Below the pieces are notes generated by a model. That model saw only the letters and a program-made list of their open reading frames with translations, had not been told where the DNA came from and did not search any database. From assembly GCA_963783375.1 (NCBI GenBank), contig CAWANH010000003.1, positions 128,001 to 192,000 on the forward strand: DNA of 64,000 bases, written 5' to 3'. The stretch comes from Candidatus Eiseniibacteriota bacterium (GTDB lineage: Bacteria > Eisenbacteria > RBG-16-71-46 > JABDJR01). Positions 44,778 to 61,690 of the stretch are shown piece by piece (the first letter of the stretch is position 1; each line of letters opens with the position of its first letter). A program made the translations under genes and the position numbers.

Positions 44778-46166
44778 TCAGGACCGCCCGGGGTTCGGCC
44801 GTGCCAGGAGCCCGGCCAGGTCCCGTTCGGCCTGCCGCCGCGGGGTCGGGACCTCGAGCTCCAGGTAGAACGCACGCCGGTCCGCCGCCTCCGCGATCAA
44901 CGCCAGGGCAAAGACCGCGAAGAGCCCCGGCTGCGGCCGCGCGAGCCACACCACGGCCGGAGCGAAGAGGCCCGCGCCGAGGCGGAGGAGATCCAGGGCG
45001 AGGCGGTCCCGCCGGGAAACGCCCGCCCGCCGCCGCACATAGAGGCCCGCCTTCAGGAGGGCTGCCGCCCCGGCCAGCCACGGTTCCCGCGCGAGGATTC
45101 CGGCCATCAGGAGCCCGGTGACGAGAACGTCGGCGCTGTGGAGCGGCTTGGCCGTCCTGGCGCGGACCGGATCGTAGACCCGGTCCATGGCGAAGAGGGC
45201 CAGGAAGCCGACGAGCGCGCCCGCCCAACCCAGGGCCGGCGCCTTGAAGAGGAGGGCGAGCGCCGAGAGCCCCATGAAGATCTCGAAGCCCGCGATCTCG
45301 CGGCTCAGCCACGAGCGGCGAACGTTCAGGACCGCCCGCCACGCGCGAGTCTTCCGTCCCAGGTGCCGAACGCTCACCAGCATCGCCGCACCGCCTGCGG
45401 CCAGGAACAGCCAGGGATCGGGGGGGGACCCGCCGAGAAGCGCCGCCGCGAACCAGCCCACCAGGACCGAGGCCAGGAGGGAGAAGACCAGAAGCGGCCA
45501 CTCGCCGGCCAGGGTGATCTCCGAGGCCGGCCGCGCTCCTGCCGCGGTCGCCGGGCCACCGCCCGGGTTCCCGTCCGGCGCCCGTCCCCCCGGAGCGGTC
45601 GCGCCGTCGTCGGCGGCGAGGCTGCTCTCGGGCGGTCCCCCCTTCCCCCGGAGCGGGGTGAAGCGGATCGAGGGGCGGGGCGCCGGCGCCGGAAACCCCG
45701 GCACGCGGTCGGTGCCGGTGAGGCTTGCGAGGTCTCCACGGCCCAGGGCCCCGGTGGGGCATGCGGTGACGCAGGCCGGCTCCAGGCCCTCGGCCAGCCG
45801 GTGATCGCAGAAGGTGCACTTGGTCATGACCGCGGCCGCGTCGTCGTAGCGGAGGGCCTCGTAGGGGCAGGCCCAGGTGCAGTAGCGGCAGCCGATGCAG
45901 CGCTCGGCGTCGATGTTCACGATGCCGGAGGCCGGGTCCTTGCCGATGGCCAGGGCCGGGCAGGCCCGCTCGCAGGGCGCGTCGGCGCAGTGGTTGCACG
46001 CCAGGGACAGGTGGTAGGTGGGGAGGCCGGGGTGGCGCGGGGCGTTGAAGGTCACGATCTGCCGCCAGCTCCAGTCGAGGCCCAGCTCGTTCTCGATCGA
46101 GCAGGCCAGGCGGCAGGCCTCGCAGCCCGTGCACCGGTTGAGGTCGAGGGTGAACGCCTCGGTCAT
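44778..46166 (-). CDS. Fused 4Fe-4S dicluster protein (DmsB-like) and DmsC-like membrane anchor
   Basis: CTGCEAC, CNHCADAPC, CIGCRYC, KCTFC, PACV..CP; then EWPLLVF, HLGR..R.SWLSREI. Confidence 0.9.
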   Translation of the reverse strand: MTEAFTLDLNRCTGCEACRLACSIENELGLDWSWRQIVTFNAPRHPGLPTYHLSLACNHCADAPCERACPALAIGKDPASGIVNIDAERCIGCRYCTWACPYEALRYDDAAAVMTKCTFCDHRLAEGLEPACVTACPTGALGRGDLASLTGTDRVPGFPAPAPRPSIRFTPLRGKGGPPESSLAADDGATAPGGRAPDGNPGGGPATAAGARPASEITLAGEWPLLVFSLLASVLVGWFAAALLGGSPPDPWLFLAAGGAAMLVSVRHLGRKTRAWRAVLNVRRSWLSREIAGFEIFMGLSALALLFKAPALGWAGALVGFLALFAMDRVYDPVRARTAKPLHSADVLVTGLLMAGILAREPWLAGAAALLKAGLYVRRRAGVSRRDRLALDLLRLGAGLFAPAVVWLARPQPGLFAVFALALIAEAADRRAFYLELEVPTPRRQAERDLAGLLARPNPGRS

Positions 46167-48221
46167 CCGGCCTTCTCGACCTGGACCAGGTTGTCGTGGA
46201 AGGCGGCGCCGTGACCCATGTCGGTCTCCCGCCCCAGGGAGCAGAAATTCACCGTCCCCCCGTCGGTGATCCACCAGCCGTTGGTCACGGTCACGCATCC
46301 CCGGCGGAGACCGTGGTCCGCCCGGGCCTCCACCGTGAGCTCCCCCCGGTCGTTGAACACCCGCACCCGGTCCCCCTCGGCGACACCGCGCTCGGCCATG
46401 TCCTCGGGGTGCATGGCCACGGTGGGTTTCGGGCTCACCGCCCGGATCATCCGGAGGTTGTTGAACTGGGAGTGGATCCGGTTCTTGGTGTTGGGGGTCA
46501 TGAGATAGAGCGGATACTTCCGCGACTCGGCCGAGTCGCGCCGGACGGACTCCTCGGGCTCGACGTAGGCGGGAAGGGGGTCCACCCCCCATCGCCGCGC
46601 CGCCTCCTCCGACCGTAGCTCGATCTTCCCCGAAGGCGTTGGGAACACGAGATCGGCGAACGCGATCTCCTCGTGTCCCGGGGCCAGGATCGGCCCTTCC
46701 CTCAGGCGGGCCAGGGTCAACCCGGGGAAGGGGGCCAGGCGGGTTTCCAACCACGCTTCGATCTCCCCGTCCGAGGCCCCGGGGAAGGCGCTGTCGATCG
46801 CTTCCTGCGGGAACCCCAGGCGTTCGGCCAGGAGCCGGTAGATCTCGCTCTCCGGCTTCACCTCTCCCGGGGGCTCCAGCACCTTCTGCTTGAGCTGGAT
46901 GTAGGGGTGCCAGTAGGCCCCGATCACGTCGGACTGCTCGAACAGCGTCTTGGCCGGAAGCACCAGGTCCGCCTCGCGGGCGGTGTCGGTCAGGAACTGC
47001 TCCACCACCACCCGGAACTCGAGCTTCCGGATCGCTTCGAGAACGGTGTTGGTCTCCGGGTTCTGGGTGACCGGGTTCCCCCGCTCCACCCAGAGCATCC
47101 GGAGTTCGGGGTCGCGCTGGGCGAGCATGTCCCGGCCGAGCCGGGCGGTGGAGACGGAGACGCGCGCCACGCCGTCCGGCCGCTCCGGCGGATAGAAGGC
47201 GATCGGGTCCTTCATCTCGTCGAAGATCGAGGTCTGGAGGTTGGCGAACTGCCAGCCCGCCCCCGGCCGGCCGAAGTTCCCGGTGAGGGCCAAGGAGCGC
47301 CAGCATCGCCCGCATGGTCTGGCCGCTGTTGGTGTAGCGCTGCATGCCGTAGCCCGCGGAAATCGTAGCCGGGCGGTGCTCGGCGAAGAGCGCGGCCAGG
47401 CGTTCGATATAGGGCGAGGGGACGTCGGTGATCGCCGCCGCCCGCTCCGGGGTGAAATCGCGCACCAGGGCCTCGAAGGCGTCGTACCCAAGGACGTGCC
47501 GTTCGATGAAGTCGCGGTTCACCGCACCGTCCCGGATGAGCGCGTGGGCCACGGCCAGGGCGAGGGCGCCGTCGGAGCCGGGCCGGCACTGGATCAAGAG
47601 GTCGGCCCGGTCCGCGCTCGCGGTGCGACGGGGGTCCACCACCACGAGCTTCCCCCCCGCGGCCTGGGCCTCGTCGATGAAGCGGGTCTGGTGGATGTTG
47701 GTCTCGGCGGCGTTCTTCCCCCAGAGCACGATGAGCCGGGCGTTGGCCAGGTCCCAGGGGGCGCTGTGAAGGTTCTTCCCGAGGGTGAGCCGCGAGGCCT
47801 CGAGGCCGGCCGGCCAGCAAAGGTCGCCGTAGGTGGTGGTGTATCCCCCGTAGAGCCGCCAGAACGCCGACCCCAGACGGTTGAGCAATCCCTTGGTCCC
47901 GCTGGCCGCGTAGTAGAGCACGCTCTGGGGGCCGGGGTCCTGCTCGAGCGCGGTCAGCGTCTCGGCGATGCGGTCGAGAGCGTGGTCCCAGCTGACGCGG
48001 CGGAAGGCGCCCGATCGCGGCCCCCGCTCCAGGGGGAAGAGGATCCGGTCGGGAGAGGTCGCCCGCCCCACGTAGCTCAGACCCTTGAGACAAACGCCCT
48101 CGGGAGTGGCGCGGTTGTCGGGATGGGGCTCGATCCGGCGCACGCGACCGTCTTCCACGTGCACCTTCATGGTGCAGGTGCTGTAGCAGTTCCGCGGACA
48201 GGCGGTGGTGTAGACGGGCAT
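46163..48221 (-). CDS. Molybdopterin-dependent oxidoreductase catalytic subunit, +1 frameshift near 47292
   Basis: CPRNCYSTC..CLKG Fe-S site, WGKN, DPRR, TDTA..AD.VLPA, IHSQF; extra T in CTC CTT GGC. Confidence 0.85.
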
Positions 48222-48543: not shown

Positions 48544-50856
48544 TCAGACCTCGAAACCCATCTTCCGGAGGAACGCCGGCCAGCGGGGATCGCGCTGCAG
48601 CGCGGTCAGCACCGGAATGGACTTCACCATGCTCGCCCCCGAGTCGCGGGTGTCCACCGCCCGGTCCATCCAGTGGAAGGCGTCGTCCACCTCGCCCCGG
48701 ATCGCGTGGAGGATGGCGATCTGGATCGCGGAGTCCTCGGGGTGCTCGGCCTTGAGCTTCTCGAGCGCCGCCCGCGACTCGGCCTCCCGCCCCATGGCGA
48801 AGTACACGTCGCCGAGAGCGAGTAGCCGGGCGAACTCCGCGGGCTCCCGCTCGGCGTGGGACAGCGCCTCATCGAGCCGGCCCATCCGGCAAAGGATGCT
48901 GGCCAGGATGCTGTGACACACGATCCGCTGCGGGGCCAGCTCCAGCGCCTTGAGGTAGGCGGTTTCCGCCTCCTCGAACCGTAGAGCCGAGAAGTAGACC
49001 CGGCCCAGGCGGGCGTATGCGTTCGAGCTCAGGGGATCCAGCGCGGTTACCTTCTCGGCGAACGCCACCGCCTCCTCGGCCCGCCCCAGATACGAGGCCA
49101 GCTCCCCCGCCTCCTGGATCACGTCCAGGCTGTCCGGGGCCAGCGCCAGGGCGCGGGCCGACGACGCCTGCGCCCCCTTCCAGTCCCACTCGTACATCCG
49201 CTGGACCCGGGAGAGCATGACGTACCCCTCGGCCAGGTCGGGTTCGATGGCCAGCGCCCGCTCGGCCGCCTCGCGCGCCCTCGGCCAGCCCTCGTCCACG
49301 GGAACCCACCCGTAGCCCCCCTGGAGGCCGAAGGCAAGGGAAAGGGCCGCCCACGCCCGGGCGTGGCCGGGATCCAGATCCACCGCCCGGCGGAGGTATC
49401 CGACCCCCTTCTCGACGTCCGCTTCGCTCAACCGGTCGATGAAGTGCCTTCCCTGGAGGAACAGGCGGTGGGCCTCTGCGTTCCCCCCGCGGCCGGCAGC
49501 GGCGGCGGCGACCTCGGCGCGCGCCTCGCGGCTGGCGGTGGAATCCTCCGACTCCCCCAGGAGCGTGGTGCGGAGCTCCTTCACCACCGATTGCGCGATG
49601 TCGTCCTGCACCGCGAAGATGTCGTCCAGGGTCCGGTCGTAGGTCTCGGACCAGAGCGGATAGCCGTCGGCGACCTTGACCAGCTGCACGGTGACCCGCA
49701 CCCGGTTTCCCGCCTTGCGCACGCTCCCCTCCAGGACGGTGGCCACCTTGAGGGCGCGACCGATCTCGGCGATCGTCGCCTCCTTGCCCTTGAAGGTGGA
49801 CGACGACGTCCGCGCCGCCACCCGGAGGCCACGGACCTTCACCAGAACGCTCAGAAGCTCGTCGGCGAGACCATCGGAGAAGTATTCATCCTCGGGGTCG
49901 CGGCTCCGGTTCACGAACGGCAGCACCGCGATCGACGGCGCATCCGTATTCGGGGGCGCGGGCTTCGCTACCGGGGAAGGAGCCGCGGCCGCCGGCCGTG
50001 ACGCCGTCTCCCGCTGGAGGATTTCCAGCTCGTTCCGCACGTCCTTGGCGGTCTGGAACCGCCGCTCGCGGTCCTTCTCCAGGCAGCGCGACACGATCCG
50101 ACCGAGATCGCGGGGCAGCTCGGCGCGGAGGTCGCGGAGCGGAACCGGCGTGTCGCGAAGAATCGCCGAGGTCACGTCCGCGGACGATTCACCCGAGAAT
50201 GGCCGCCGCCCGGTCGCCATCTCGTAGAGGATGATGCCCAGGGCGAAGAGGTCGCTGCGCGCGTCCACCGGCTCGCCCCGGATCTGCTCGGGAGCCATGT
50301 AGGGGACGGTCCCGAAGAGCTGGCCGGCCTCGGAGATCGGCGACTGCATGGTCACCATCCGGGTGGCTTCCTGCTCCGGATCCTCCTGGGCCAGCTTGGC
50401 CAGCCCGAAGTCCAGCACCTTCACCCGCCCGTCGTGAGCCACCATGATGTTCGCGGGCTTCAGATCGCGGTGCACCACGCCCCTCTCATGGGCCGCGGAC
50501 AGGGCGTCGGCCAGGGGAATCGAGAGCTCGAGGAGACGGGCGACGGGGAGGCCCCCCGGGGCGATGACGGTGTCCAGGCCCCGGCCCGTCACCAGCTCCA
50601 TGGTGAGGAAGCGCACCCCCTCCGCCTCCTCGATGGAGTGGAGGACCACGATGTTGGGGTGGGTGAGCCCGGCCACGGTGCGGGCCTCGCGCTCGAACCG
50701 GGCAAGACGGCCGGCATCCCGGGCCAGGGCGTCGGGAAGCACCTTGAGGGCCACGTCGCGCCCCAAACGCTCGTCGCGGGCCCGGTACACCTCCCCCATT
50801 CCCCCCGCGCCGATCTTCTCGGTGACGGTGTAGTGGGCCAGGGTGCGACCGATCAT
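48544..50856 (-). CDS. Ser/Thr protein kinase with TolB-like (SIAVLPF) and TPR domains
   Basis: GAGGMG, VALK, HRDLKPAN, DFG, APE; SIAVLPF; TPR repeats; DPRW. Confidence 0.95.
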   Translation of the reverse strand: MIGRTLAHYTVTEKIGAGGMGEVYRARDERLGRDVALKVLPDALARDAGRLARFEREARTVAGLTHPNIVVLHSIEEAEGVRFLTMELVTGRGLDTVIAPGGLPVARLLELSIPLADALSAAHERGVVHRDLKPANIMVAHDGRVKVLDFGLAKLAQEDPEQEATRMVTMQSPISEAGQLFGTVPYMAPEQIRGEPVDARSDLFALGIILYEMATGRRPFSGESSADVTSAILRDTPVPLRDLRAELPRDLGRIVSRCLEKDRERRFQTAKDVRNELEILQRETASRPAAAAPSPVAKPAPPNTDAPSIAVLPFVNRSRDPEDEYFSDGLADELLSVLVKVRGLRVAARTSSSTFKGKEATIAEIGRALKVATVLEGSVRKAGNRVRVTVQLVKVADGYPLWSETYDRTLDDIFAVQDDIAQSVVKELRTTLLGESEDSTASREARAEVAAAAAGRGGNAEAHRLFLQGRHFIDRLSEADVEKGVGYLRRAVDLDPGHARAWAALSLAFGLQGGYGWVPVDEGWPRAREAAERALAIEPDLAEGYVMLSRVQRMYEWDWKGAQASSARALALAPDSLDVIQEAGELASYLGRAEEAVAFAEKVTALDPLSSNAYARLGRVYFSALRFEEAETAYLKALELAPQRIVCHSILASILCRMGRLDEALSHAEREPAEFARLLALGDVYFAMGREAESRAALEKLKAEHPEDSAIQIAILHAIRGEVDDAFHWMDRAVDTRDSGASMVKSIPVLTALQRDPRWPAFLRKMGFEV

Positions 50857-50991
50857 GGGGTGCTCCGGAATAGGTTGGGTGAGACGCCGCGACAGACTTT
50901 ACCCGATGATCTGCCGCGCTCCAAGCCGACAACCGCTCCGGGATGGAAGCGCGGGGCGGGTCTCCCGCGCCTTTCTTCCGCCGCCGTTCCT

Positions 50992-52113
50992 TCAGGTGCT
51001 CCGCCGCCAAATGGCGGGACGGGCCTCTCCGTTCTCCCCGCTCTGCAGGGATCCCGCGGCCCAGATCGAGCCGTCCGGGGCCTGGGCCAGCCGCCGAATG
51101 CGGGCGGACGGAATGGCTGCTTCGCGCTCGATCCCTTCTCCCGACGGCCACCGGAGGATGAATCCGGTGTCCATGCCGCAGGCGAGATAGAGGGTGCCGT
51201 CCGCGGCGATCAGGATGTCGTTCACCCTTTCCAGGGCCTCCGGATCGGGGAGCACGATCTCGGCCCAATCTCCGGCCACGGATCGAAGCAGGAGGAAGGC
51301 GGTGTACTCGTCGGCGCCGCCGGCAAAATTCGTGATCGCCCCACCCAGGAGGATCCCCCCGGGGGCGCTCACCGCCACCGCGCCGAACTCCCGGTTGGAG
51401 CAGCCGCCGCAGGGGACGTCGATCCGGTCCCAGCCCGATCCGCGGTGCAGGAACAACACTCCGTTCGGGGATTCGGGGGTTCCCTCGGCCCCGTCGTCGA
51501 ATCCGCAGGCGGCCCAGAGCCCGTTCCGGGTCGCAATGTCGTCCAGACCGCGCTCGTTCCGGTTCGCGGGGAAGGGCAGCGTCTCCGGGGTCCATACGTC
51601 GGCGGCGGTGCTGACCATCACCTGCTGGCTCCCGATTGCTCCTCCCCCGAACCGAAGCGTGTCGCCGTTCGCCGCGAACGCGGTTCCGCCGAAGTCGAAT
51701 TCGTGACGGCTCCAGCCGTCCCGTTCGTCGAGGATGAATCCCCCCGCCGTCGGGTCCGCTCCCGCCACCACCGCCTCACCGGCGGGGGCGACGCCGACGG
51801 CGGACAACAACCCCTCGGCCGGTAGCGGGACCCCGGTGACCGGAGTCCACGCGCCGTCCTCACCGAGCGAGGCGAGAAACGGGGCGAAGGTCTGAACGGG
51901 GACGGTTCCCCCCACGCCCGCTCCCGCCGCCAGGCCCCGGGTCGCCGAGAACGCCAGCCCGAGGACGTAACCCTTCTCCGGGGCCGCGGTGAAGGTGGTT
52001 GCCTCCCAGGGGCCCAGGAGGTCCGGACGGGTCGGATCATCATTGCAGGCGAGGAGCAGGGTGGCGGAGCAAAGCGCCACGATTCCCAGCACCGACAGGT
52101 TCACGCGTTTCAT
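50992..52113 (-). CDS. Hypothetical lipoprotein (propeller-like)
   Basis: Lipobox LLAC; repeated beta-rich G..W units. Confidence 0.65.
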   Translation of the reverse strand: MKRVNLSVLGIVALCSATLLLACNDDPTRPDLLGPWEATTFTAAPEKGYVLGLAFSATRGLAAGAGVGGTVPVQTFAPFLASLGEDGAWTPVTGVPLPAEGLLSAVGVAPAGEAVVAGADPTAGGFILDERDGWSRHEFDFGGTAFAANGDTLRFGGGAIGSQQVMVSTAADVWTPETLPFPANRNERGLDDIATRNGLWAACGFDDGAEGTPESPNGVLFLHRGSGWDRIDVPCGGCSNREFGAVAVSAPGGILLGGAITNFAGGADEYTAFLLLRSVAGDWAEIVLPDPEALERVNDILIAADGTLYLACGMDTGFILRWPSGEGIEREAAIPSARIRRLAQAPDGSIWAAGSLQSGENGEARPAIWRRST

Positions 52114-52209
52114 CTCACAGCCTCACCATCTTCCCGCGGCCCTGGCAGGAATCCCCCAAGATGGGAGGGCACCGTCCCCCTCCGTCTCCGCATCAACCTA
52201 ACAGAAGCA

Positions 52210-52239
52210 GGGACCGCGGTCCTCTCGGGCCGCGGTCCC
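52210..52239. terminator. GC hairpin downstream of the 52300 gene
   Basis: GGGACCGCGGTCC-TCTC-GGGCCGCGGTCCC. Confidence 0.45.
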
Positions 52240-52299
52240 CTCTCTAAGCCTGAAGCGCGGATGATCCCCGCGAGGATTCTCGATAGCTTTCGACCTGGG

Positions 52300-53283
52300 T
52301 TACTCCTGGGTCGACGGATCCGAACCCGCGTCGGACGAACCATAGGCCTGCTTGATGGCGCCCCATGAAGCCTGCTTTGTCGGTGTGGGAGACTCGCAGA
52401 CCTTCCAGCACCCGCCCGCGTAGCTGGTGACGTACAGGCAGTTGTTGCAGAAGGTGATGCCGGCCGGCCTGGTCAGGGTTGCCCAGACGGTCTTGGTTCC
52501 GTCCGGCTTGACCCGGTAGATCTTGCCGTCGGACATGTCCGAGGCGAACATGTCGCCGCCGAAGCTCCCGCCGGTCGCCCAGTCGAACTGCTCCGGACCG
52601 ACCATTCCCCCCGTGAACAAGGTCGCGCTACCGCCGCTATCGACGGTCACGATCCCGACGCCGAGGCTCCCGGCGGCGCTGGTCGCGTAGAGCCCGGTTC
52701 CCCAGGCCCCACCCGGCCCGAACCGGAAGTAGGAGGACTGGAAGTTGGCGAACGGCGTGATCACGCCCCCGGGGGTGACCGTGCTGATCGCTCCGAAGTA
52801 GGAGATGGCGAAGAGGTCGGTGCTGTAGGCGCCGGTGGGATCGAAGGTCACGTCGCTCACGTTGGGGAAGTTGACGAACAGGGACGGCGACCCCGATGGA
52901 TCGAGACGGGTGATGCGACCGGAGCCGTACGAGGCCACGTAGAGGTAGGTGCCGAAGTCGTTGGCGGGACCGGGGCCGAAGGCCATGCCCACCGGGAACT
53001 GGATATCGGGAGCACCCGAGGCGAACGGGGAGGGATCGTCGAGGAAGTCGATGCGCTCGACGGCGTCGCCGCTGCTGTCGTCGATGTAGACGTAGTCGCC
53101 CCACACGCCGCCCGGGCTGCACGCCGCCCCCTTGGGGCCGGTGGAAGTACCAAGGACGGTCACGTCGAAGCCCGATTCGTTCAGGGTGAACTGGGCGGAT
53201 GCCGTCCCCGGGGTCATGCAAAAGACCATCGTCGCCAAGACCGCCGGGCTCATCGCGGCAGTCAGTATTCGCCTTGCTGTCAT
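52300..53283 (-). CDS. Secreted beta-propeller (NHL/SGL-like) protein with SWGxIKxxY motif
   Basis: RBS AGGAGG, signal peptide ..ASAQ, repeats P.GMAFGP..LYV; TPTKQASWGAIKQAY near C-terminus. Confidence 0.75.
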   Translation of the reverse strand: MTARRILTAAMSPAVLATMVFCMTPGTASAQFTLNESGFDVTVLGTSTGPKGAACSPGGVWGDYVYIDDSSGDAVERIDFLDDPSPFASGAPDIQFPVGMAFGPGPANDFGTYLYVASYGSGRITRLDPSGSPSLFVNFPNVSDVTFDPTGAYSTDLFAISYFGAISTVTPGGVITPFANFQSSYFRFGPGGAWGTGLYATSAAGSLGVGIVTVDSGGSATLFTGGMVGPEQFDWATGGSFGGDMFASDMSDGKIYRVKPDGTKTVWATLTRPAGITFCNNCLYVTSYAGGCWKVCESPTPTKQASWGAIKQAYGSSDAGSDPSTQE

Positions 53284-53585
53284 CTGGATCCTCCTGAGGT
53301 GCGGTGGGGTGCTTCCCGCTCGGAGTGCCCTGTCGGCTCCATCGTGCACGGGGTTTGGTTGCGGGTTGACGACCAATTCTATCATGAATCGAGCTGAGTT
53401 CGAGCCGTCGGATCAGGTTTCGAGGCTTCAAATCGCGTTTTTGCCCGAGGCTCGAGATCGGATTATCGGAACGACGGGGTTTAAGCAAGTTGGCGGAGGG
53501 ATGACCGGCTGTCCGGCCGGAGGGATCGAGCGGTGCAAGGGCGGCGGGTCCGGACGAAGGGCCACCGGCTCCGGGGACCCGCGAG

Positions 53586-55925
53586 CTAGAAGCTGCCTCG
53601 CCTCCGACGAAGTCCGCCAGTCCCATGCGCTTCAGAACCTCCCGGATACCGCGGTTCGTTCAGCAGGTCGAGGTGCGGCTCGAGGCAGGAGAATTCGAGG
53701 ATGCGCGGAACTCAGCGCCGAACGCTGACGGTAGGTCTCTTCGATGCCGTCGAGCACCTTGTCCTTTTCGCCGAGAGCGGAGTCGATGTAGGCCGAGGAC
53801 CACCGGATCCACCGCGACGCTTTCGGTGTCCCGTAGTCCTGACTTGAATCGCGAGGGCCTTCTCCCGGTCGCCGGCCGCCCCGTAGACCCGGGCCACCCA
53901 GGACCGGGCCAGTGGCGTTCCCCCACCGTGAAGCGCGGCCTCCGCCAGTTTGATCTCGGCCACCGCTTCATCGTGGCGGCCCTGTCTCGAGTAGGTGTTG
54001 GCCAGCTTGATGTGCCCCCAGATCCAGTCGGGATGGAGGGCGATGGCCGCGGTGAACTCGCGGACGGCCCGTTCGTAGTCCCCCATGAGCATGCAGACGA
54101 ATGCCACGGCATGAGTCGGGTTGGGAGAAACCGGGTCCAACCGCCTGGCCCGCTCCGCCATCTCCAGGGCCTCGGGCAGGCGATTCTGCGGTGCCCAGGA
54201 AGTCGGCGTATTCCAGGTGTGGGACGTCCCGTCCCGGCCCCGCCTCGACGGCGCGGCGGTGGGCCTCATCCGCCCCTTCCCAGTCCCAGTCGAACGCCCG
54301 CATCATGCCGAGAGCGGTCTGGGCCTCGGGGAGGTCGGGATCGAGGCGGACGGCGGTTCGGGCCGCGGCCCGGGCCCGTCGCCTGGCTTCCTGCTGGTCC
54401 AGAATGTTGTGAAGGCTCTGAATCATGTAGGACTCGGCCAGCGCGGCATGGGGCAACGCGTAGTTTGGGTCGCGTTCCGCCGCTTCCTCCAGGTACTCCG
54501 CTCCCTTGACCATCTGGGTGGCGCTCCCAATGAGCAAGGACTTGCCCTTGAGATAGAGCAGGTACGCCTGGGGATCGACCTGGTTCTCGACCAGACGAGC
54601 CACCTCATCGCTGGAGAGGGCGTCCTTGAGTTGCCGGGCGAGGTTTCGGCGAGGTCCCGCTCCATCGACGCGGCTTCGGCCAGCGGCCGGTCGTAGCGAT
54701 CGCCCCAGAGACGGCGGCCGTCGGGTACCCCCACCAGCTCGACGTTCAATACCAGGCGATCCCTCCGGGGGCGGAGATCTCCCAGCACCAAGGCGTCGAC
54801 CCCGAGCCGTTCGCCCAGGACCGGGATATCCCGGGGCTCGTCCCGCAGGGCGAAGGTCGCGTGCCGGGAGATGACCCTGAGATCCGGGATCCGCGCCAGG
54901 GTGGCGATGAGGTTCTCGGCCAGGCCTTCGCAGAGGTACTCCGCGTCCTCGTCCTTGGACCCGTTCTCGAACGGCATGACCGCCACCGATTCGATCCGGG
55001 AGAGCTCATCCTCGGGGGGCTTGCTCCGGGCGGGCCGCCGGATGCCGAAGGTCCGCCGGCTGGGCGGCAAGATCTGGAGCGCCGCGAGGAGGGCTCCGGC
55101 GTTACGAAACCGCTGCTCCGGGTTCTTCGCCAGGCACCGGTGGACGATCCTGGACAGGGACCGGGAGACGGCGCCATTCAGACCGTCCACGGCTTCCGGA
55201 GCGTGTCCCTGGATCCGCTCGAAGGTCTCGCGCGGGGTCCGGCCGGCGAAGGGTCGCTTCCCGGCCAGCATTTCGTAGAGCACGACACCCAGGCTGAAGA
55301 CGTCGGTTCGCGCGTCCAAGTCGGTTCCCAGGGTCTGCTCGGGGCTCATGTAGGGGACGGTCCCCAGGATCTCTCCCGCCTGCGTCATCCCGCCGTCGAC
55401 CTCGGGATCGAGAGCCATCGTCTTCACCAGAGGATCGGCATCGTAAGCGGGATCGTACCCGAGCCGGGCCAGGCCGAAGTCCAGCACCTTCACCTGCCCG
55501 CGATCGGTGATCATCACGTTCCCGGGCTTGATGTCGCGGTGGACGATGTGACGGGCGTGGGCGTCGGCCAGGGCATCGGCGATCTGGATGCCGATCGAGA
55601 CGGCCTCTCCGATCGGAAGGCCGCCCCGCGCGATGCGGTCGGTCAGTGTCACCCCATCGATGTGCTCCATGACGATGTAGCTCATGCCGTCGGTGTCGCC
55701 CACGTCGTAGATGTGGGCCACGTTGGGATGCTTGAGGGCCGACGCCGATCGCGCCTCCACCGTGAACCGGCGGCGGCGCACGGCGTCCGCGGCCAGTTCC
55801 GGGGGTAGCACCTTGAGGGCCACGGTGCGCTTCAAACGGACGTCCTCGGCCAGATACACCGCCCCCATGCCGCCCTCCCCCACCTTGCGGAGGATTCTGT
55901 AGTGGGAAATGGTCGTGCCGATCAA
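53586..55925 (-). pseudogene. Ser/Thr kinase-TolB-like-TPR gene with at least six single-base indels (possibly sequencing errors)
   Basis: Intact kinase domain (HRDIKPGN, DFG) and SVAVMPF; frame breaks near 54642, 54190, 53846, 53793, 53709, 53645; 3' end approximate. Confidence 0.7.
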
Positions 55926-56170
55926 GGTTGTCCCGCCGTTCGGATCAGGGAGATGCAGACAGGTTGAGGAGGCCGGATCATAGCGGATAATCCTGACACC
56001 GCGGCCCCTGGCTGACCAATGGGTTGGGGCGCAACACCTTGGACGGTGGATACGGCGGGGGCCGAACGCTAATGGCAAGCCCTTCAGTTGTTCCGAGACC
56101 CATGATCCTTCCGAAACAGCAGACGTACCGTTCCGAACGGGACTCATCCAGCGGGATCGGAGACGGGCGA

Positions 56171-58462
56171 TCAGGACTCGCTCGTCGCTCCCAGCCCCAG
56201 GCTCTCCACGAACCCCGGCCAGCGCGGATCGGTGCGGAAGGGATCGAACCCGGGGTGGCCGATGAGCGAGATGACGGTCTGGCACTCGTCGCGAGCCGCC
56301 TCCAGGATCGTCCAGGCGGTATCGCGATCGCCCAACTCCCCCAAGGCCCAGGCGGCGGCGGCCACGGCGGGAGCGGGAGAGCCGGGACCGTCCCCCGAAG
56401 CCGGACGCGCGGCCAGTTCGTCGAGCAGGGTGCGCGCCTCTCCCCCCCTGCCGGCGCGGGCCAGGGCCCAAGCCAGCACCCCCACGTAGTGCGAGGCACG
56501 GTTCGTCGCGGCGACGGCGTTCTCCAGAGCGGCGATCGCCTCGTCGTATCGGCCGCGCTGCACGAGGACGGAGGCGAGGCTCCAGAGGGCCAGGGTGTGC
56601 CCGGGTTCCAGATCGAGGCCCACCTCCAGATAACGCTCCGCCTCGTCCACCCGCCCCACCACCAGGAGGCTGAGGCCGCTCATCCCGTAAGGATAGGCGG
56701 CCAGGGGATCCATGGCCCGGGCGCGCTCGAAGATGGCCGCGCACTCGTCACCGCGCTGCTGGGCGGCCAGGGCCATGCCCTGCCAGCAGGCGGCCTGGAC
56801 CTGCTCGGAGCCGGCCGCGAGGGCGCGGTTGAACGCGTCCTCGGAGGCGGGCCAGTTACGCTCGCAGAAGGCGATCATGCCCCGCACGCAGTCTGCTTCC
56901 GCGGTTTCACCCTGGAGCTTCTCGGCGGTGATCAGGGCCCGGCGGGCCTCTTCCAGGGCGGGACGGGACGGGCGCATGGCGTAGGTGGCGCAGAGGACGG
57001 CAGTCTCGGCCAGGCCCACCCACGAGGGACCGTGAGTGGGATCCAGGTCCAGGGCGTTGCGGTAGCTGGCGGAAGCGGCGGCGTGGTCGTTCCGCAAGCG
57101 CAGGTAGCGCCCCTTGAGGAAGTGGCGGTAGGCATCGAGGTTGTTGACCTGGGCGCGCGCACGAACGGGGAGATCCTTGGAGGCGCGACGGTCCTCGCGA
57201 CCCAGGTGGCTTCGTACCGCCTCCACCACCCCGGCGGCTATCTCGTCCTGAACGGCGAAGACGTCCTCGGTATCGCGGTCGTAGCGTCGAGACCACAGGT
57301 GGTAGCCGGTTCCGGTGTCCACGAGCTGGGCGGTCACCCGCATGCGGGTTCCGGCCACGCGCACGCTCCCTTCCAGGATGTGGCCCACGTTCAGGGCCCG
57401 GCCGATGTCGGGGAGGTCGCGGTTCTCGCTTCGGGCACGGAACGCCGAGGTGCGCGAGGCGACGCGGATCCCCGGGATGGGAACGAGAGCGTTCATGATC
57501 TCCTCGGCCATGCCCTCACAGAAGTAGTCCTGGTCCTTGGCCGCACTCATGTCGGCAAAGGGAAGGACGGCGATGCCGTGGCCGAGTTGCTTCTCCGGCC
57601 CGGCTGATTCACGGTTGTCGCTCTGGAGCGTACGGAGTTCGTTGTGGATGTCGCGGGCGGTCTGGATGCGGTGGTTGGGCTCCTTGGCCAGACACCGCCG
57701 AACGATCCGGCTCAGCTCCTCGGGAAGCTCCCTCCGGCGCTCCGTCACCGGCGCCGGCTCCTCCTTCAGGATCGACGCCATGATCTCGGGGAAGCTCCCC
57801 CCCTCGAACGGCCGCGTCCCCGTGGCCAGCTCGTACAGCACGACCCCCAGCGCGAACAGGTCCGTACGCGCGTCCACGGCCTTGCCTTGCAGCTGTTCCG
57901 GAGCCATGTACGGCACCGTCCCCAGCACCATTCCCTCGCCCGTGAGCGGCGCGCTCAGGGCCCTGGTTGCACCGGGGTCAGCGGGCTCCTCCGCGGCCGT
58001 CTTGGCCAGCCCGAAGTCCAGCACCTTCACCCGCCCCTGCTTCGAGAGCATCACGTTGGCGGGCTTCAGGTCCCGGTGCACGATCCCCGCTTCGTGCGCC
58101 GCCTGAAGCGCATCGGCCAGCGAAACCCCGATCCGGAGCAGATCGGCAAGCGGAAAGCCGTCCGGCGGGAGGCAGTGATCCAGGCTCTGGCCCTCCACCA
58201 GCTCCATGGTGAGCAGGTGAACCCCCTCCGCTTCCTCCACCGAGTAGATCGTCACGATGTTGGGGTGGTTCAGGGCGGCCACCGCCTCGGCCTCCCGCTG
58301 GAAACGAGCCAGGCGGGAGGGGTCGGCGGCGACGGCGGCCGGCAGCACCTTGAGGGCCACCTGCCGCTTCAGCCGGGAGTCCGTGGCCCGGTATACCTCT
58401 CCCATTCCCCCCTCACCGATCTTGGCGGTGACGGTGTAGTGGGCCAGGGTCCGGCCGATCAT
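56171..58462 (-). CDS. Ser/Thr protein kinase with TolB-like (IAVLPF) and TPR domains
   Basis: GEGGMG, HRDLKPAN, DFG, APE; GIAVLPF; TPRs; DPRW. Confidence 0.95.
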   Translation of the reverse strand: MIGRTLAHYTVTAKIGEGGMGEVYRATDSRLKRQVALKVLPAAVAADPSRLARFQREAEAVAALNHPNIVTIYSVEEAEGVHLLTMELVEGQSLDHCLPPDGFPLADLLRIGVSLADALQAAHEAGIVHRDLKPANVMLSKQGRVKVLDFGLAKTAAEEPADPGATRALSAPLTGEGMVLGTVPYMAPEQLQGKAVDARTDLFALGVVLYELATGTRPFEGGSFPEIMASILKEEPAPVTERRRELPEELSRIVRRCLAKEPNHRIQTARDIHNELRTLQSDNRESAGPEKQLGHGIAVLPFADMSAAKDQDYFCEGMAEEIMNALVPIPGIRVASRTSAFRARSENRDLPDIGRALNVGHILEGSVRVAGTRMRVTAQLVDTGTGYHLWSRRYDRDTEDVFAVQDEIAAGVVEAVRSHLGREDRRASKDLPVRARAQVNNLDAYRHFLKGRYLRLRNDHAAASASYRNALDLDPTHGPSWVGLAETAVLCATYAMRPSRPALEEARRALITAEKLQGETAEADCVRGMIAFCERNWPASEDAFNRALAAGSEQVQAACWQGMALAAQQRGDECAAIFERARAMDPLAAYPYGMSGLSLLVVGRVDEAERYLEVGLDLEPGHTLALWSLASVLVQRGRYDEAIAALENAVAATNRASHYVGVLAWALARAGRGGEARTLLDELAARPASGDGPGSPAPAVAAAAWALGELGDRDTAWTILEAARDECQTVISLIGHPGFDPFRTDPRWPGFVESLGLGATSES

Positions 58463-58590
58463 GGGCGGGTCCCGAAGTGGTGTGTTCATGGCCGCCAACT
58501 CTAGCACCACCGGGTGCGCGCAACAGCGTGGCGGCGGGAATGCCCGGATCGGGGAAGCCGTCCGCGCCTTCCGGGGCCGGCGGCCGGAAC

Positions 58591-58998
58591 CTACTCGCAG
58601 AAGACGCGGACGACGTCGCCGTCGTCCGTATTCACCTCCACGTCCAACTCCCGAAGTGCCTCGATCAGCTCCTCACCATCGAGACTGCTGAACCGAGACA
58701 GGTCGATTCCACGCTCGGAGAGGCGCCGGCTGGCCTTGGAGGGCATCAGCGTCGTGAGCTTGATGCCGGTTCGAACGAGCCCGATCGGAATGCGGATGTT
58801 GACATTGTCCTTGCCGTCGACGACGACGCGCAGGTACTTGAGAGGTACTGCCTGCCGCGCGCCGCGGTCGCGCGCCGACTCCATGGTCGCCGTGGGCGTC
58901 CCGGGGGAGTCCAGTCGGGACAGGAGCTTCTCGCCTTCTTCGGGGGTAATGGTGGCGTCGGCAACCATCTTGAGGATCTTCGCTCGTTCACGGGACAT
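58591..58998 (-). CDS. SHOCT-like domain protein (DUF2089-associated)
   Basis: ERAKILKMVA..ITPEEGEKLL, LRVVV..VNIRIP, VRVFCE; RBS AAGGAG. Confidence 0.75.
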   Translation of the reverse strand: MSRERAKILKMVADATITPEEGEKLLSRLDSPGTPTATMESARDRGARQAVPLKYLRVVVDGKDNVNIRIPIGLVRTGIKLTTLMPSKASRRLSERGIDLSRFSSLDGEELIEALRELDVEVNTDDGDVVRVFCE

Positions 58999-59102
58999 CT
59001 TCGGGTCTCCTTCCTTTCGGGTTTCCTGGATCCTGACGAATTCGATCCGCACCCGCCTGCCGCCGGCGGTGACCGGAACCATCCCGGGATCACGTTGGGG
59101 CC

Positions 59103-59462
59103 TCACCGATTCAACCTCTCGAGGGCCTCATCGACGGTGATCTCGCCTCGGGCGAGCTGATCGAGCACGAGCTCGTTGGGCGTGGGTACGTCGAATGTCT
59201 CGTCGAGCCGCCGCACGATCGCGTTCAGGCGGTTCTTCACCGTGGGATAGCTCACTCCGAAGAGGCTCTCCATCTTCTTGATCGAGCCGTGGTGCCGGAC
59301 GAAGGCCATCACGAGGGCTTGGTCCTCGAGCGGGAGCCTGGCCAGCGCCGACACCTCGAATTCGCCTTCGAGCCGCACGCCGCACCTCGAGCAGACCATC
59401 CTGGAGACGACCATCGGGCGATGGCACTCGGCACAGCTGGCCTTTGAAATATCCACATCCAC
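59103..59462 (-). CDS. DUF2089 family protein (zinc ribbon plus HTH)
   Basis: CAEC..CSRC, GSIKKME..VSYPTVKNRL, GEITVDEAL. Confidence 0.9.
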   Translation of the reverse strand: MDVDISKASCAECHRPMVVSRMVCSRCGVRLEGEFEVSALARLPLEDQALVMAFVRHHGSIKKMESLFGVSYPTVKNRLNAIVRRLDETFDVPTPNELVLDQLARGEITVDEALERLNR

Positions 59463-59532: not shown

Positions 59533-59778
59533 CTCGGGGCGGGAACCGGTGCGAGCCGGTGCTTTCGCGATGGAGCGGTTGGCGGTCCCGCTTGCTTGTC
59601 GTATCTGACGCATTGACAATGCGTTAACAATCGTCGTGGGGGTGGTGGGACCCGAACACCTGAAGGGTCCTCTATCACCCCCTTGTTCAACCGACCTCAG
59701 GAGTGAACGACCGGAGCAATGCTCCGGACGAGGTTGGACCGGTCTGACGAGATCGGAATTCCGGGCTCGAACTCGCGA

Positions 59779-60864
59779 TCACCAGGGTCCATCCCTGGAA
59801 ATCTTGACAAATGATTCGCCCTCAAGACGATAGAGTCCCAGATATCCTCCGGCCCAGATCCGGCCTTCCCTGTCCTGAAAGGTGCACTGGACGCCGGGAC
59901 TATCCATGCCCTGCTGCTCGCCAAAATTCGTGAACGCTTTCCCGTCGTATCGGTACAGGCCGGCATGCTCGACCGGAAACCAGATGTTCCCCGCGCCATC
60001 CCGGTAGACGTCCCACACCTCCGTACCGCTCAACCCTTCCTGCTCGGACACATTGATGAACGATGTCCCGTCAAGACGGCACACGCCGGTGTAGTGGGTC
60101 GCAAGCCACATGCGTCCTTCCCGGTCTTCCGCAATGCAATTGACGGAGACGTCACGAAATCCATATTTCTCCGAGACGTCGACCAACGTGCTCCCGTCGT
60201 ACTCGTACACGCTGTGTTCCGCAGCAAACCACAGATTCCCGGCGCTGTCTTCCATGATGCTCCTGACCATCGTCGTGCTCGATACCCCCCTCATCGGATC
60301 AGCCTCATCCGCCGGCGGGATAGCAAACGGGACGAAGCGCTCTCCATCGAAACGACACGCTCCCTCATAGGTCCCGACCCAGATGGTTCCAAGATGGTCT
60401 ACAAGGATGCTCCAGACGTCGTCGTGATTCAGTCCGTCCTTCACGGTGTAGTTGACGAAGGACTCCCCGTCGTACCTTGTCACGCCTCCGGACGTCGCAA
60501 ACCAGACATTGCCGTCCTTGTCTTCCACGATGCCCCTTACCGCAACTCCGCCAAACCCTTCCCGGGTCGAGTAGTAGGTCAGCGATTGCCCATCGAACCG
60601 GCAGACGCCATTCCCGTTCGTGCCGAACCACAGGTTTCCTTTCGAGTCCTGGAAGATCCTGCGTACGAACGCACTGATTGCGTCGGGCGAAGGGTACACG
60701 TCGGGACCGGGGTCCTGGCTTGCAACCAGGTCTCCAGCCGCTTCCCTTGATCCAGCCGTGCTCTCCTGGGGCGAATCGGCAGTCTGGGAGTGCTGTGCGT
60801 GCCGACAGCCGATCGCGCCGAGAATGAACAGGACGGTCACGCCAATTGAGACCCGGTTACCCAA
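59779..60864 (-). CDS. Lipoprotein with two-component-regulator propeller repeats
   Basis: Lipobox AIGC; repeats I.ED..GN.WF.T..G...YDG..F; RBS GGAG. Confidence 0.85.
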   Translation of the reverse strand: MGNRVSIGVTVLFILGAIGCRHAQHSQTADSPQESTAGSREAAGDLVASQDPGPDVYPSPDAISAFVRRIFQDSKGNLWFGTNGNGVCRFDGQSLTYYSTREGFGGVAVRGIVEDKDGNVWFATSGGVTRYDGESFVNYTVKDGLNHDDVWSILVDHLGTIWVGTYEGACRFDGERFVPFAIPPADEADPMRGVSSTTMVRSIMEDSAGNLWFAAEHSVYEYDGSTLVDVSEKYGFRDVSVNCIAEDREGRMWLATHYTGVCRLDGTSFINVSEQEGLSGTEVWDVYRDGAGNIWFPVEHAGLYRYDGKAFTNFGEQQGMDSPGVQCTFQDREGRIWAGGYLGLYRLEGESFVKISRDGPW

Positions 60865-61099
60865 TTCCAGACTCCTTTCCTCCGTACTTCATTTTCACCT
60901 GATGCCAACTTCCGCAACTCCCCAAGCGGTTCTTCATCTGGAGACCACGGCCGGTCCCGTGAGTGAAGTAAGAATGACACACGCAGAACTCGAAGTCGTG
61001 CATAGGCAGGACGCCGACCAGGTGGGACGCGGGAAATTCAGAGTGGCGGTCCCGCGACATCTAGCGTCCTAACGTACTGCAACCAAATAGATTGGGTGC

Positions 61100-61351
61100 G
61101 GCGGCGGGTTATCGGATCCCGAAGGGATCCGGCCCGCCGTCATCAGAAATCAGCGCACCGGAGGTGCGCGCAGTGGTGGAGGCGGCGGGTTATCGGATCC
61201 CGAAGGGATCCGGCCCGCCGTCATCAGAAATCAGCGCACCGGAGGTGCGCGCAGTGGTGGAGGCGGCGGGTTATCGGATCCCGAAGGGATCCGGCCCGCC
61301 GTCATCAGAAATCAGCGCACCGGAGGTGCGCGCAGTGGTGGAGGCGGCGGG
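61100..61351. repeat. 81-bp tandem repeat (3 copies plus partial) containing the tmRNA 3' end
   Basis: GGCGGCGGG recurs at 61100, 61181, 61262, 61343; units identical; TGGTGGAGGCGGCGGG is the reverse complement of the last 16 nt of tmRNA. Confidence 0.95.
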
Positions 61352-61690
61352 AATCGAACCCGCGTCCGAAACCGAATCCACGAGAGTCACTACGTGCGTA
61401 GCCGGATGTTTGATTCTCGCCCCCCGCCCCGCCGACCGGCGGGCTGAGCAAGGGGCCAGCTCCTAAGATCTCGCCGGTTCCCTCGGAGCAGAGTACCCGG
61501 CCAGCCCGCCTGATATGACGGTTCACTCCTCCCCCGACGGACGAAGGGAGGCGAACCGCGCTACCTTATGTTAGGCAGCGAGTGCGAACTGAGTATTGTC
61601 AGTTGCAGTTTTCCTGCCGGTTTAACGAGGTTGACAGGACCTCGGCACGCGCCTCCCGCTTCCTCGACCCCGTCGAAGCCAATCGCCCCC
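61336..61690 (-). ncRNA. ssrA: tmRNA
   Basis: 5' GGGGGCGATTGGCTTCGAC pairs with 3' CGCCTCC-ACCA (G3-U pair), T-arm GGTTCGATTCC, tag frame DNTQFALAA* at 61600-61571. Confidence 0.97.

What the first reader, a model, noticed from the sequence alone, without database searches (positions are those of the whole stretch)
61100..61351. Array of 81-bp repeats each regenerating the tmRNA 3' end
Seen: in tmRNA sense the CCA is followed by CTGCGCGCACCTCCGGTGCGCTGATTTCTGATGACGGCGGGCCGGATCCCTTCGGGATCCGATAA-CCCGCCGCCTCCACCA twice exactly, then a third copy whose end decays to CCCGCCGCCGCACCCA at the border with lower-GC DNA. Known: repeats carrying a tRNA 3' end follow E. coli tyrT, and integrases duplicate ssrA ends. 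Inference: either a minimal non-autonomous element integrating repeatedly at ssrA (a stack of att sites) or a precursor processed into 81-nt ACCA-ended small RNAs.
Basis: partly seen in the sequence, partly recalled or inferred. Interest (0 to 1): 0.7.

Follow-up and report, generated by a model that had tools for sequence, protein, structure and literature searches.

The report
tmRNA-tail repeats as spare docking sites
Behind this bacterium's tmRNA gene sit three 81-base repeats that end in a copy of the gene's tail; in relatives, blocks of foreign DNA start at such tails and carry their signature letters, so the repeats likely serve as spare docking sites for mobile DNA, a testable job for a long-unexplained repeat class.

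Summary
The array is real: three 81-bp units behind ssrA, the third differing at 3 of its last 7 bases. It is a tRNA-linked repeat (TLR), known from E. coli without a function and not listed there at ssrA. The two-hairpin unit shows compensatory changes and occurs in 11 of 150 class genomes. The genome's four tRNA-Ser genes carry a second family. In relatives, islands begin at unit ends. Of 25 ssrA-type right junctions, the 4 that close an island starting at a unit carry the unit's T-loop letter G58; the other 21 carry ssrA's A58. Islands therefore likely integrate into unit ends. Here an island left end starts at the first base after unit 3 (E 1.7e-7), so the 'decayed' copy is probably a junction. 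Against: the window has no integrase or recognisable right arm, and its candidate right junction does not match today's unit. Independent insertion of units was not seen. Aminoacylation is unlikely (4 of 7 acceptor pairs, no G3-U70); transcription is untested. This scan found TLRs and a spare-dock reading before on other DNA. New variant of a known kind.

The parts
61336..61690 (-). ssrA (tmRNA) gene, tag ATDNTQFALAA; T-loop TTCGATT; its last 16 nt are the repeated core
61255..61335 (-). Unit 1, 81 bp: hairpin 1, linker, long hairpin, exact copy of the ssrA last 16 nt
   Evidence: (MFE -41.5 kcal/mol, z -4.75)
61174..61254 (-). Unit 2, identical to unit 1
61093..61173 (-). Unit 3, 78 of 81 identical; its end breaks the acceptor strand and CCA; inferred left junction (attL-like) of the adjacent islet
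61315..61331 (-). Hairpin 1 of unit 1 (7 bp, 3-nt loop reading GGA on the opposite strand); flagged terminator-like with a weak T tract; same at 61234-61250 and 61153-61169
61295..61303 (-). 5' arm of unit 1, rebuilds the T-stem 5' strand and pairs with the copied 3' strand
   Evidence: switches with the host gene in the G004 tRNA-Leu copy
61276..61292 (-). Inner palindrome of unit 1 placed in the T-loop position (7 bp, 3-nt loop reading GAA on the opposite strand)
61255..61270 (-). Spare copy of the ssrA 3' end in unit 1 (T-stem 3' strand, acceptor 3' strand, ACCA); second exact copy at 61174-61189
60998..61092 (-). Conserved island left end, starting at the first base after unit 3
   Evidence: profile from 5 other loci, window excluded, E 1.7e-7 in the window and best hit in the genome; pairwise E 2.3e-7 to the sequence directly after ssrA in G020
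59779..60864 (-). Cargo gene of the islet, 361 aa, two-component regulator propeller repeats (PF07494), GC3 0.72 against 0.81-0.94 in 7 neighbours
59634..59656 (-). Candidate decayed right junction (attR): full T-loop with G58 plus 12 of 16 core matches; closes a 1.46-kb islet; uncertain
   Evidence: 13 genome hits of the pattern, 10 are ssrA or tRNA genes; right arm not detected

Best explanation
The array is a host-resident tRNA-linked repeat whose units each rebuild the ssrA T-arm and 3' tail, and these tails likely act as spare attachment sites for ssrA-specific tyrosine-integrase islands. Shown: the unit anatomy, its conservation with compensatory changes across two families, islands starting at unit ends in relatives, the T-loop letters of their right junctions, and an island left end at the first base after unit 3. 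Inferred: strand exchange falls in the T-loop, so the displaced right junction keeps the target's loop letters and records whether ssrA or a unit was hit; copy number changes by slippage or unequal crossing-over between the 16-bp direct repeats, which also homogenises units; unit 3 is the left junction of a 1.46-kb integrase-less islet; and arrays are kept because they give several docks and take insertions that would otherwise hit ssrA. The last step is the weakest.
For: (1) T-loop test. Right-arm model R3 (T-loop and core left out) over 150 class genomes; one search printed 47 arm hits, of which 24 are followed by the ssrA core (23 target other genes or have no loop); one more comes. The 4 with G58 (G118 R1, G076 R3, G001 R1 and R2) each close an island whose left end is a unit with the same loop letters. 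The other 21 have A58 like ssrA: 19 in 13 genomes with no R2 match and 2 in G076 islands that do not start at a unit. Fisher p 8e-5 by junction, 0.002 by genome (kin not independent). (2) G118 R1 and G076 R2 have right arms identical at 123 of 133 positions but different loops, each matching its target, so the loop is not a fixed element trait. (3) The G076 pattern was predicted and then read. (4) The same right-arm family flanks an intact PF00589 integrase island at ssrA in G013 (E 3.4e-12; Pfam), and in G202 a PF00589 island starts at a repeat end. (5) L207 and L209 share 1605 bp at 99.9% from the att core on; L207 has ssrA upstream and L209 other sequence ending in an att copy, so units stay with the host. 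(6) Window: left-end profile hit 61092-60998, low GC, low GC3. (7) Structure: 92% of cells paired, 7 of 15 pairs with double changes, 0 of 500 shuffles for the covariation score.
Against: The window has no integrase; the genome's 5 PF00589 hits lie on other contigs. No right arm is found in the window. The candidate attR loop (TTCGGGT) matches units of relatives, not this genome's unit (CCGATAA, one base longer). The diagnostic set is 4 junctions in 3 genomes, and these arms were in the training set of R3. None of those 4 islands was shown to encode its own integrase. G201, G202 and G214 stacks are not diagnostic, and G003's junction is decayed and was not counted. G214 has identical repeats on both sides of an island, which also fits carriage on the island. 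Use as a target does not explain why the two hairpins are conserved, and does not show selection. Fold-back template switching could give compensatory changes without selection (my knowledge).
Confidence: 0.5

Rival explanations
1. Same anatomy and same occasional docking, but no selected role: the unit is a by-product (ssrA terminator hairpin plus an old attachment-site remnant) that perpetuates itself by slippage, with fold-back repair keeping the palindromes perfect.
For: Core unique in the genome; copy number and unit length vary freely (1-6 units, 44-206 bp); hairpin 1 is terminator-like; 0 of 129 genomes of the other 16 families carry this unit although many have ssrA islands; an E. coli strain lacking all 22 TLRs was built (strain table of PMC8144298). 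G006 has a single unit sharing only 9 bp with ssrA, a possible seed state.
Against: Conserved two-hairpin layout across 4 genera and a second family, and re-tailoring of both arms to tRNA-Leu in G004; 6 of 7 other family members keep it.
Confidence: 0.2
2. The units are co-transcribed with ssrA and cut at the copied 3' ends into structured small RNAs, like RtT and RrB in E. coli, and that RNA is the selected function.
For: Same orientation as ssrA; strong fold (z -4.75); consensus fold slightly better on the sense strand (-16.9 against -12.6 kcal/mol) with some G-U pairs; RrA/B/F TLRs are transcribed and processed (PMC8144298).
Against: Acceptor mimic is broken in 14 of 14 aligned units (best 5 of 7 pairs in register; here 4 of 7, U3-U70). 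Loops are 3-nt in register, reading GNA on the opposite strand; UUCG-only and GNRA loops are not enriched in 65 units. No match to RtT or C4 in Rfam.
Confidence: 0.17
3. Each unit is a non-autonomous mini-element that an integrase inserts at the ssrA T-loop as a folded single strand, as with integron attC sites or CTX phage DNA.
For: GNA-triloop hairpins on the strand opposite ssrA: GC-TNC-GC 29 against 5.9 +/- 2.2 in shuffles, CC-T[ACG]C-GG 20 against 2.2, over 65 units (many are related Acidobacteria). Single units fold better on that strand in 12 of 12 (partly a G-richness effect). Patchy spread (2 of 18 families) and a jump to tRNA-Leu. Mixed arrays of different unit types in G004 and G007.
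Against: 0 of 4 diagnostic islands show a unit added after the island; G076 and L209 have no new unit at the gene; 0 hits in viral contigs for one exact pattern; tRNA-Ser units carry the triloops on the other strand; no mobilising enzyme found.
Confidence: 0.12
4. Assembly artefact.
For: Units 1 and 2 are identical; contig depth is not threefold.
Against: Junction-containing contigs in two runs; homologous arrays with other unit lengths in relatives.
Confidence: 0.01

Closest known systems
E. coli tRNA-linked repeats (TLRs), including the tyrT/tyrV 178-bp repeats = RtT RNA (Rfam RF00391). Source: PMC8144298 passages, discussion part 1 and strain table; Egan and Landy 1978 and Rudd 1999 only as cited there.
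   Same: Directly behind a stable-RNA gene, same strand, 1-5 copies, each ending in the gene's 3' end; a 5' arm complementary to the copied T-stem strand; only the last bases of the T-loop kept (tyrT units read).
   Different: Sits at ssrA, which is not among the loci in the 22-TLR deletion list; 16-nt rather than 18-19-nt identity; 81 against 178 bp; no sequence match to RF00391; evidence here for use as integration targets, which the passages I read do not mention.
Genomic islands at tRNA/tmRNA genes and their tandem arrays (Islander, PMC4383910 passages; Dehalococcoides ssrA islands, PMC3146451 passages)
   Same: Displaced 3' fragments mark island ends; crossover in the T-loop region; stacks of islands, some without integrase; ssrA the most enriched target.
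   Different: The repeated unit is gene-less and 81 bp (Islander rejects candidates under 2 kb), lacks the island arms, has its own conserved fold, and exists before islands enter it. Dehalococcoides islands use a serine recombinase; the islands here encode PF00589.
Folded single-strand recombination sites (integron attC, CTX phage attP) and GCGNAGC mini-hairpin DNA (PMC13037366, start of abstract only; attC and CTX recalled)
   Same: Imperfect long hairpin with an unpaired centre; C-GNA-G triloops on one strand.
   Different: No GTTRRRY core conserved, no integron integrase, no cassette genes inside the units; single-strand use untested.
C4 antisense RNA (RF01695) and REP/REPIN elements
   Same: Short structured intergenic repeats.
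   Different: No Rfam match; not dispersed: 3 copies at one locus.

Membership tests
tRNA-linked repeats (TLR) | Directly downstream of a tRNA/rRNA-type gene on the same strand | tested here: met
   Unit 1 starts at the base after the ssrA CCA
tRNA-linked repeats (TLR) | 3' end identical to the upstream gene's 3' end (18-19 bp in E. coli) | tested here: met
   16 nt exact, slightly shorter than in E. coli; 17-18 nt in G003, G001
tRNA-linked repeats (TLR) | One to five head-to-tail copies per locus, several loci per genome | tested here: met
   3 copies; 5 of 57 tRNA/tmRNA calls carry such repeats: ssrA and 4 tRNA-Ser
tRNA-linked repeats (TLR) | Co-transcribed and processed at the repeated end (shown for RtT and RrB) | not testable with these tools
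   Only contigs of RNA runs were available
RtT RNA family RF00391 | Match to the covariance model | tested here: not met
   No hit at gathering score or at E up to 10 / 5
C4 antisense RNA RF01695 | Match to the covariance model | tested here: not met
tDNA-targeting tyrosine-integrase island (unit as element) | Integrase gene or island arms inside the repeated unit | tested here: not met
   Unit is 81 bp; no PF00589 on this contig; arm model R3 has no hit in the window
tDNA-targeting tyrosine-integrase island (adjacent islet) | Left end next to an att copy | tested here: met
   Profile hit 61092-60998, E 1.7e-7
tDNA-targeting tyrosine-integrase island (adjacent islet) | Displaced 3' fragment and right arm at the far end | tested here: inconclusive
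   Candidate fragment at 59634-59656, about 0.002 expected by chance per 5 kb, post hoc; right arm not found
attB site for ssrA islands (unit end) | Islands found inserted at it, with the right junction inheriting its letters | tested here: met
   In relatives, 4 of 4 diagnostic junctions against 0 of 21; not matched for this genome's own unit
attB site for ssrA islands (unit end) | Recombination by the integrase in vivo or in vitro | not testable with these tools
   needs an assay
Alanine-accepting tRNA mimic | 7-bp acceptor stem with G3-U70 | tested here: not met
   4 of 7 pairs, U3-U70
Integron attC | Conserved RYYYAAC/GTTRRRY boxes and an integron integrase | tested here: not met
   Boxes not conserved in alignment A3; the 5 PF00589 hits were not typed further

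The most novel reading that the evidence does not exclude
TLRs are host-encoded, expandable multi-slot landing pads: folded DNA modules with extra-stable GNA-triloop hairpins on one strand that present spare T-loop attachment sites behind ssrA and tRNA-Ser, collect cargo islets one per unit like a recombinase-free integron platform, and shield the stable-RNA gene from elements whose own 3' copy is defective. This would give the TLRs described since 1978 a general DNA-level function across phyla.
Probability: 0.3. Interest if true: 0.8.

Novelty: new variant of a known kind. Interest (0 to 1): 0.55.

Why it matters
TLRs have no known function (PMC8144298). The T-loop letters act as a natural barcode of the integration target, which turns the question into a genome-wide count and a simple integrase assay. 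If unit ends are real attB sites, island stacks at ssrA form by filling pre-existing slots and not only by repeated insertion at the gene; island finders that drop short tDNA fragments misplace boundaries; and short tandem landing pads could be used for multi-copy integration in engineering.

Tried and rejected
Dispersed repeat or REP: the core is unique in the genome. Rfam families RtT and C4: no match; best non-tRNA hits were hairpin-type miRNA models far below their cut-offs. Viral contigs: 0 hits for one exact unit pattern, a narrow test. Metagenome pattern scan: 28 loci, only 3 real units (L201, L207, L209); 14 were tmRNA genes themselves, 1 an island right junction, 10 unrelated matches. 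RNA runs X3, X4, X7, X9: contigs cover tmRNA-like sequence and none covers the array, but they are contigs of other strains, so this says nothing on transcription. Strand of folding by wobble pairs: mixed; one search ended in an error after printing the tmRNA and Ser totals. Left-end model R1 found only its 3 training sequences at strong E in 141 genomes. Right arm in the window: none. Spacer/guide reading of the variable 5' halves of tRNA-Ser units: noticed, not tested. The short ORFs across the array (101-124 aa) are translations of the repeat and were not pursued. G026's Ser hit is two adjacent tRNA genes. First MAFFT alignment had wrong G004 coordinates, redone. Literature: searches gave no paper describing TLRs at ssrA or TLR ends as att sites (listings only, except the papers named). 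Williams 2002 and 2003 and Bosl and Kersten 1991 were not held; Rudd 1999 was not looked up; they may mention this. The C4 text in the supplements of PMC2864571 did not contain 'rtT' or 'tmRNA' (one file cut). bioRxiv supplements were not read.

Full report
Observation. The tmRNA gene lies at 61336-61690 on the minus strand. Three 81-bp units follow it: 61255-61335, 61174-61254 and 61093-61173. The first two are identical and end in the last 16 nt of ssrA; the third differs at 3 of its last 7 bases. The core occurs nowhere else in the genome. Two DNA runs hold 111-nt contigs containing the unit-to-unit junction. They may be the source sample, and their depth does not confirm three copies.

Anatomy. 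Each unit has a 7-bp hairpin, an AT-richer linker and a long hairpin whose base rebuilds the T-stem. An inner palindrome sits where the T-loop would be, followed by the T-stem 3' strand, acceptor 3' strand and ACCA (-41.5 kcal/mol, z -4.75; coordinates). Both loops are 3 nt in register and read GGA and GAA on the opposite strand. The acceptor stem is not rebuilt: 4 of 7 pairs and U3-U70 here, at best 5 of 7 among 14 aligned units. Charging with alanine is therefore unlikely.

Distribution. Records titled Candidatus Eisenbacteria carry the same kind of array. A covariance model of the unit (14 units from 9 genomes and 2 metagenome loci, which match by construction) hits 11 of 150 class genomes: this genome, 6 of 7 others of its family, 4 of 13 of family f15 and 0 of 129 in 16 other families. 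G003 and G039 are the only hits outside the training set; G002, the one miss in the family, has no assembled tmRNA. Units vary from 44 to 206 bp and from 1 to 6 copies. On the 14-unit alignment 92% of cells pair and 7 of 15 pairs show double changes (the structure was derived from this alignment and kin are not independent). One copy in G004 follows tRNA-Leu(TAA), and both its 3' end and its 5' arm are switched to that gene's sequence. In this genome 5 of 57 tRNA/tmRNA calls have such repeats: ssrA and the four tRNA-Ser genes. The Ser units (104-112 bp) are a separate family found in 6 of the family's 8 genomes. A scan of GTDB for the tmRNA end repeated at 60-120 bp gave 90 loci, 65 anchored at a tmRNA-like end, 12 of them with several units, in many phyla. 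Some of these may be island scars and not TLRs (L423). Their first units are enriched for triloops reading GNA on the opposite strand (29 against 5.9 +/- 2.2) and not for RNA tetraloops (dominated by related Acidobacteria). GCGNAGC is an unusually stable DNA hairpin (PMC13037366, start of abstract).

Known class. This is the TLR layout: 22 repeats at 10 loci in E. coli, 18-19 bp identical to the upstream gene's end, no known function (PMC8144298, passages, discussion). ssrA is not in that paper's deletion list. There is no match to Rfam RtT or C4, so the unit works like a TLR and meets its layout criteria but is not an RtT homologue by sequence.

What the surroundings show. Behind ssrA, G001 has three units, a 3.2-kb islet, a right junction, a unit, a 1.3-kb islet, a right junction, a unit and another island left end. 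G118, G201, G202 and G214 show the same alternation. The right arms belong to the family that flanks an intact PF00589 island at ssrA in G013. Integration displaces the target's 3' fragment to the far end of the island (PMC4383910), so the T-loop letters of that fragment should record the target. ssrA has A at position 58; units of G001, G118 and G076 have G. I saw unit-type loops in G118 and G001, predicted the G076 order, and found it: the integrase island at ssrA and the next islet end in A58, and the island that starts at the unit ends in G58. As a control, a right-arm model without loop or core was run on 150 genomes. Of 47 arm hits printed, 24 are followed by the ssrA core; with G076 R3 this makes 25. 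The 4 with G58 all close islands that start at a unit with the same letters; all 21 others have A58, 19 of them in 13 genomes without a unit match. Two near-identical arms (123 of 133) carry different loops, each matching its target. L207 and L209 show the other route: an insertion at the gene itself, with the units pushed behind the right junction unchanged. I dropped G003 (decayed junction) and G201, G202, G214 (loops not distinguishable) from the count. The positive set is 4 junctions in 3 genomes, and none of those islands was shown to encode its own integrase.

The window. A profile of island left ends from five other loci hits 61092-60998, from the first base after unit 3 (E 1.7e-7; best in the genome). 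The same end follows ssrA directly in G020, which has no unit. The next 1.4 kb are low in GC and carry one PF07494 gene with low GC3. A T-loop plus 12 of 16 core bases at 59634-59656 may be the decayed right junction; the pattern has 13 genome hits, 10 at ssrA or tRNA genes. Unit ends that break the acceptor strand also occur at island junctions in G001 and G076, so the third copy's 'decay' is likely junction sequence. Results against: no right arm, no integrase on this contig, and the candidate's loop matches relatives' units, not this genome's. This is unexplained; later turnover of the array is one possibility.

Mechanism. Best reading (0.5): resident units provide spare T-loop attachment sites, expand by slippage between the 16-bp repeats, and are filled by ssrA islands. 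Docking in relatives is well supported by sequence; that this is why arrays are kept is inference. Rivals: neutral self-perpetuating scar with incidental docking (0.2), processed small RNA (0.17), mini-element inserted as a folded single strand (0.12), artefact (0.01). The triloop bias is the main fact the best reading does not explain.

Earlier notes of this scan. One search, seen before my tests, listed stacks of cassettes and docking sites behind tRNA genes and gave the lead to PMC3146451 (passages). One search, seen, listed TLRs on other DNA, several with a spare-dock reading and two against it. A sequence look-up found no look-alike. These notes are not independent evidence. The T-loop test with its control is my own addition as far as those listings show.

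Verdict. Real; a new ssrA-linked variant of a known, unexplained repeat class, with direct genomic evidence that its ends are used as integration targets. Interest 0.55.

Noticed in passing
G000:C29:1086693-1087313, 1090665-1091091, 1125051-1125359, 1126083-1126581 (all minus; L031, L032): All four tRNA-Ser genes carry 104-112-bp repeats ending in their own 3' end, with a conserved 3' hairpin (GNA triloops on the sense strand) and variable 5' halves; units are shared between Ser loci of one genome. No tRNA-Leu or tRNA-Tyr gene of this genome has them.
   Followed up: partly
L301 (G004:C2:671053-671138): An ssrA-type unit behind tRNA-Leu(TAA) with 3' end and complementary 5' arm both changed to the tRNA-Leu sequence.
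   Followed up: partly
L083 (G006:C14:2946339-2947388, minus): tRNA-Ser(TGA), three repeats, a 138-aa lipoprotein-like gene, then a 3' half-copy of the tRNA from the anticodon arm and another repeat: an islet inserted at an anticodon-type site beside TLRs.
   Followed up: no
L035 and L036 (G004, G007 ssrA): 44-45-bp minimal units (pyrimidine leader, T-stem mimic with 8-nt loop, ssrA end) alternate with 83-84-bp units; G003 and G007 share a 206-bp double unit.
   Followed up: no
L193 (G013:C1:3180000-3197000): The integrase ORF reads through the ssrA 3' end on the opposite strand, and the left end with a second integrase-like ORF recurs after the right junction (tandem island).
   Followed up: no
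window 48544-59462: Run of Ser/Thr kinase genes with TPR repeats (one apparently frameshifted near 54400) and a DUF2089/SHOCT pair downstream of the islet; similar kinases follow ssrA in G001, G003 and G020.
   Followed up: no
G000:C28:377415-378446, C28:1545063-1545427, C29:1086489-1086623, C29:1272949-1273539: A dispersed palindromic repeat family with a GGGGAAGC / TTATTGCGAAC core forms tandem arrays at several loci, one directly after the tRNA-Ser(CGA) repeats.
   Followed up: no
G000:C28:1122151-1126977: 222-bp x 21.8 coding repeat with CXXCH motifs, a very large multiheme cytochrome.
   Followed up: no
window 44778-48221: Molybdopterin oxidoreductase gene appears frameshifted near 47400, continued by an ORF at 46163-47491 in another frame.
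   Followed up: no
L341, L320, L326, L355 (G118, G058, G094): The same island right-arm family also ends at other tRNA 3' ends, so one element family uses several tDNA targets.
   Followed up: no
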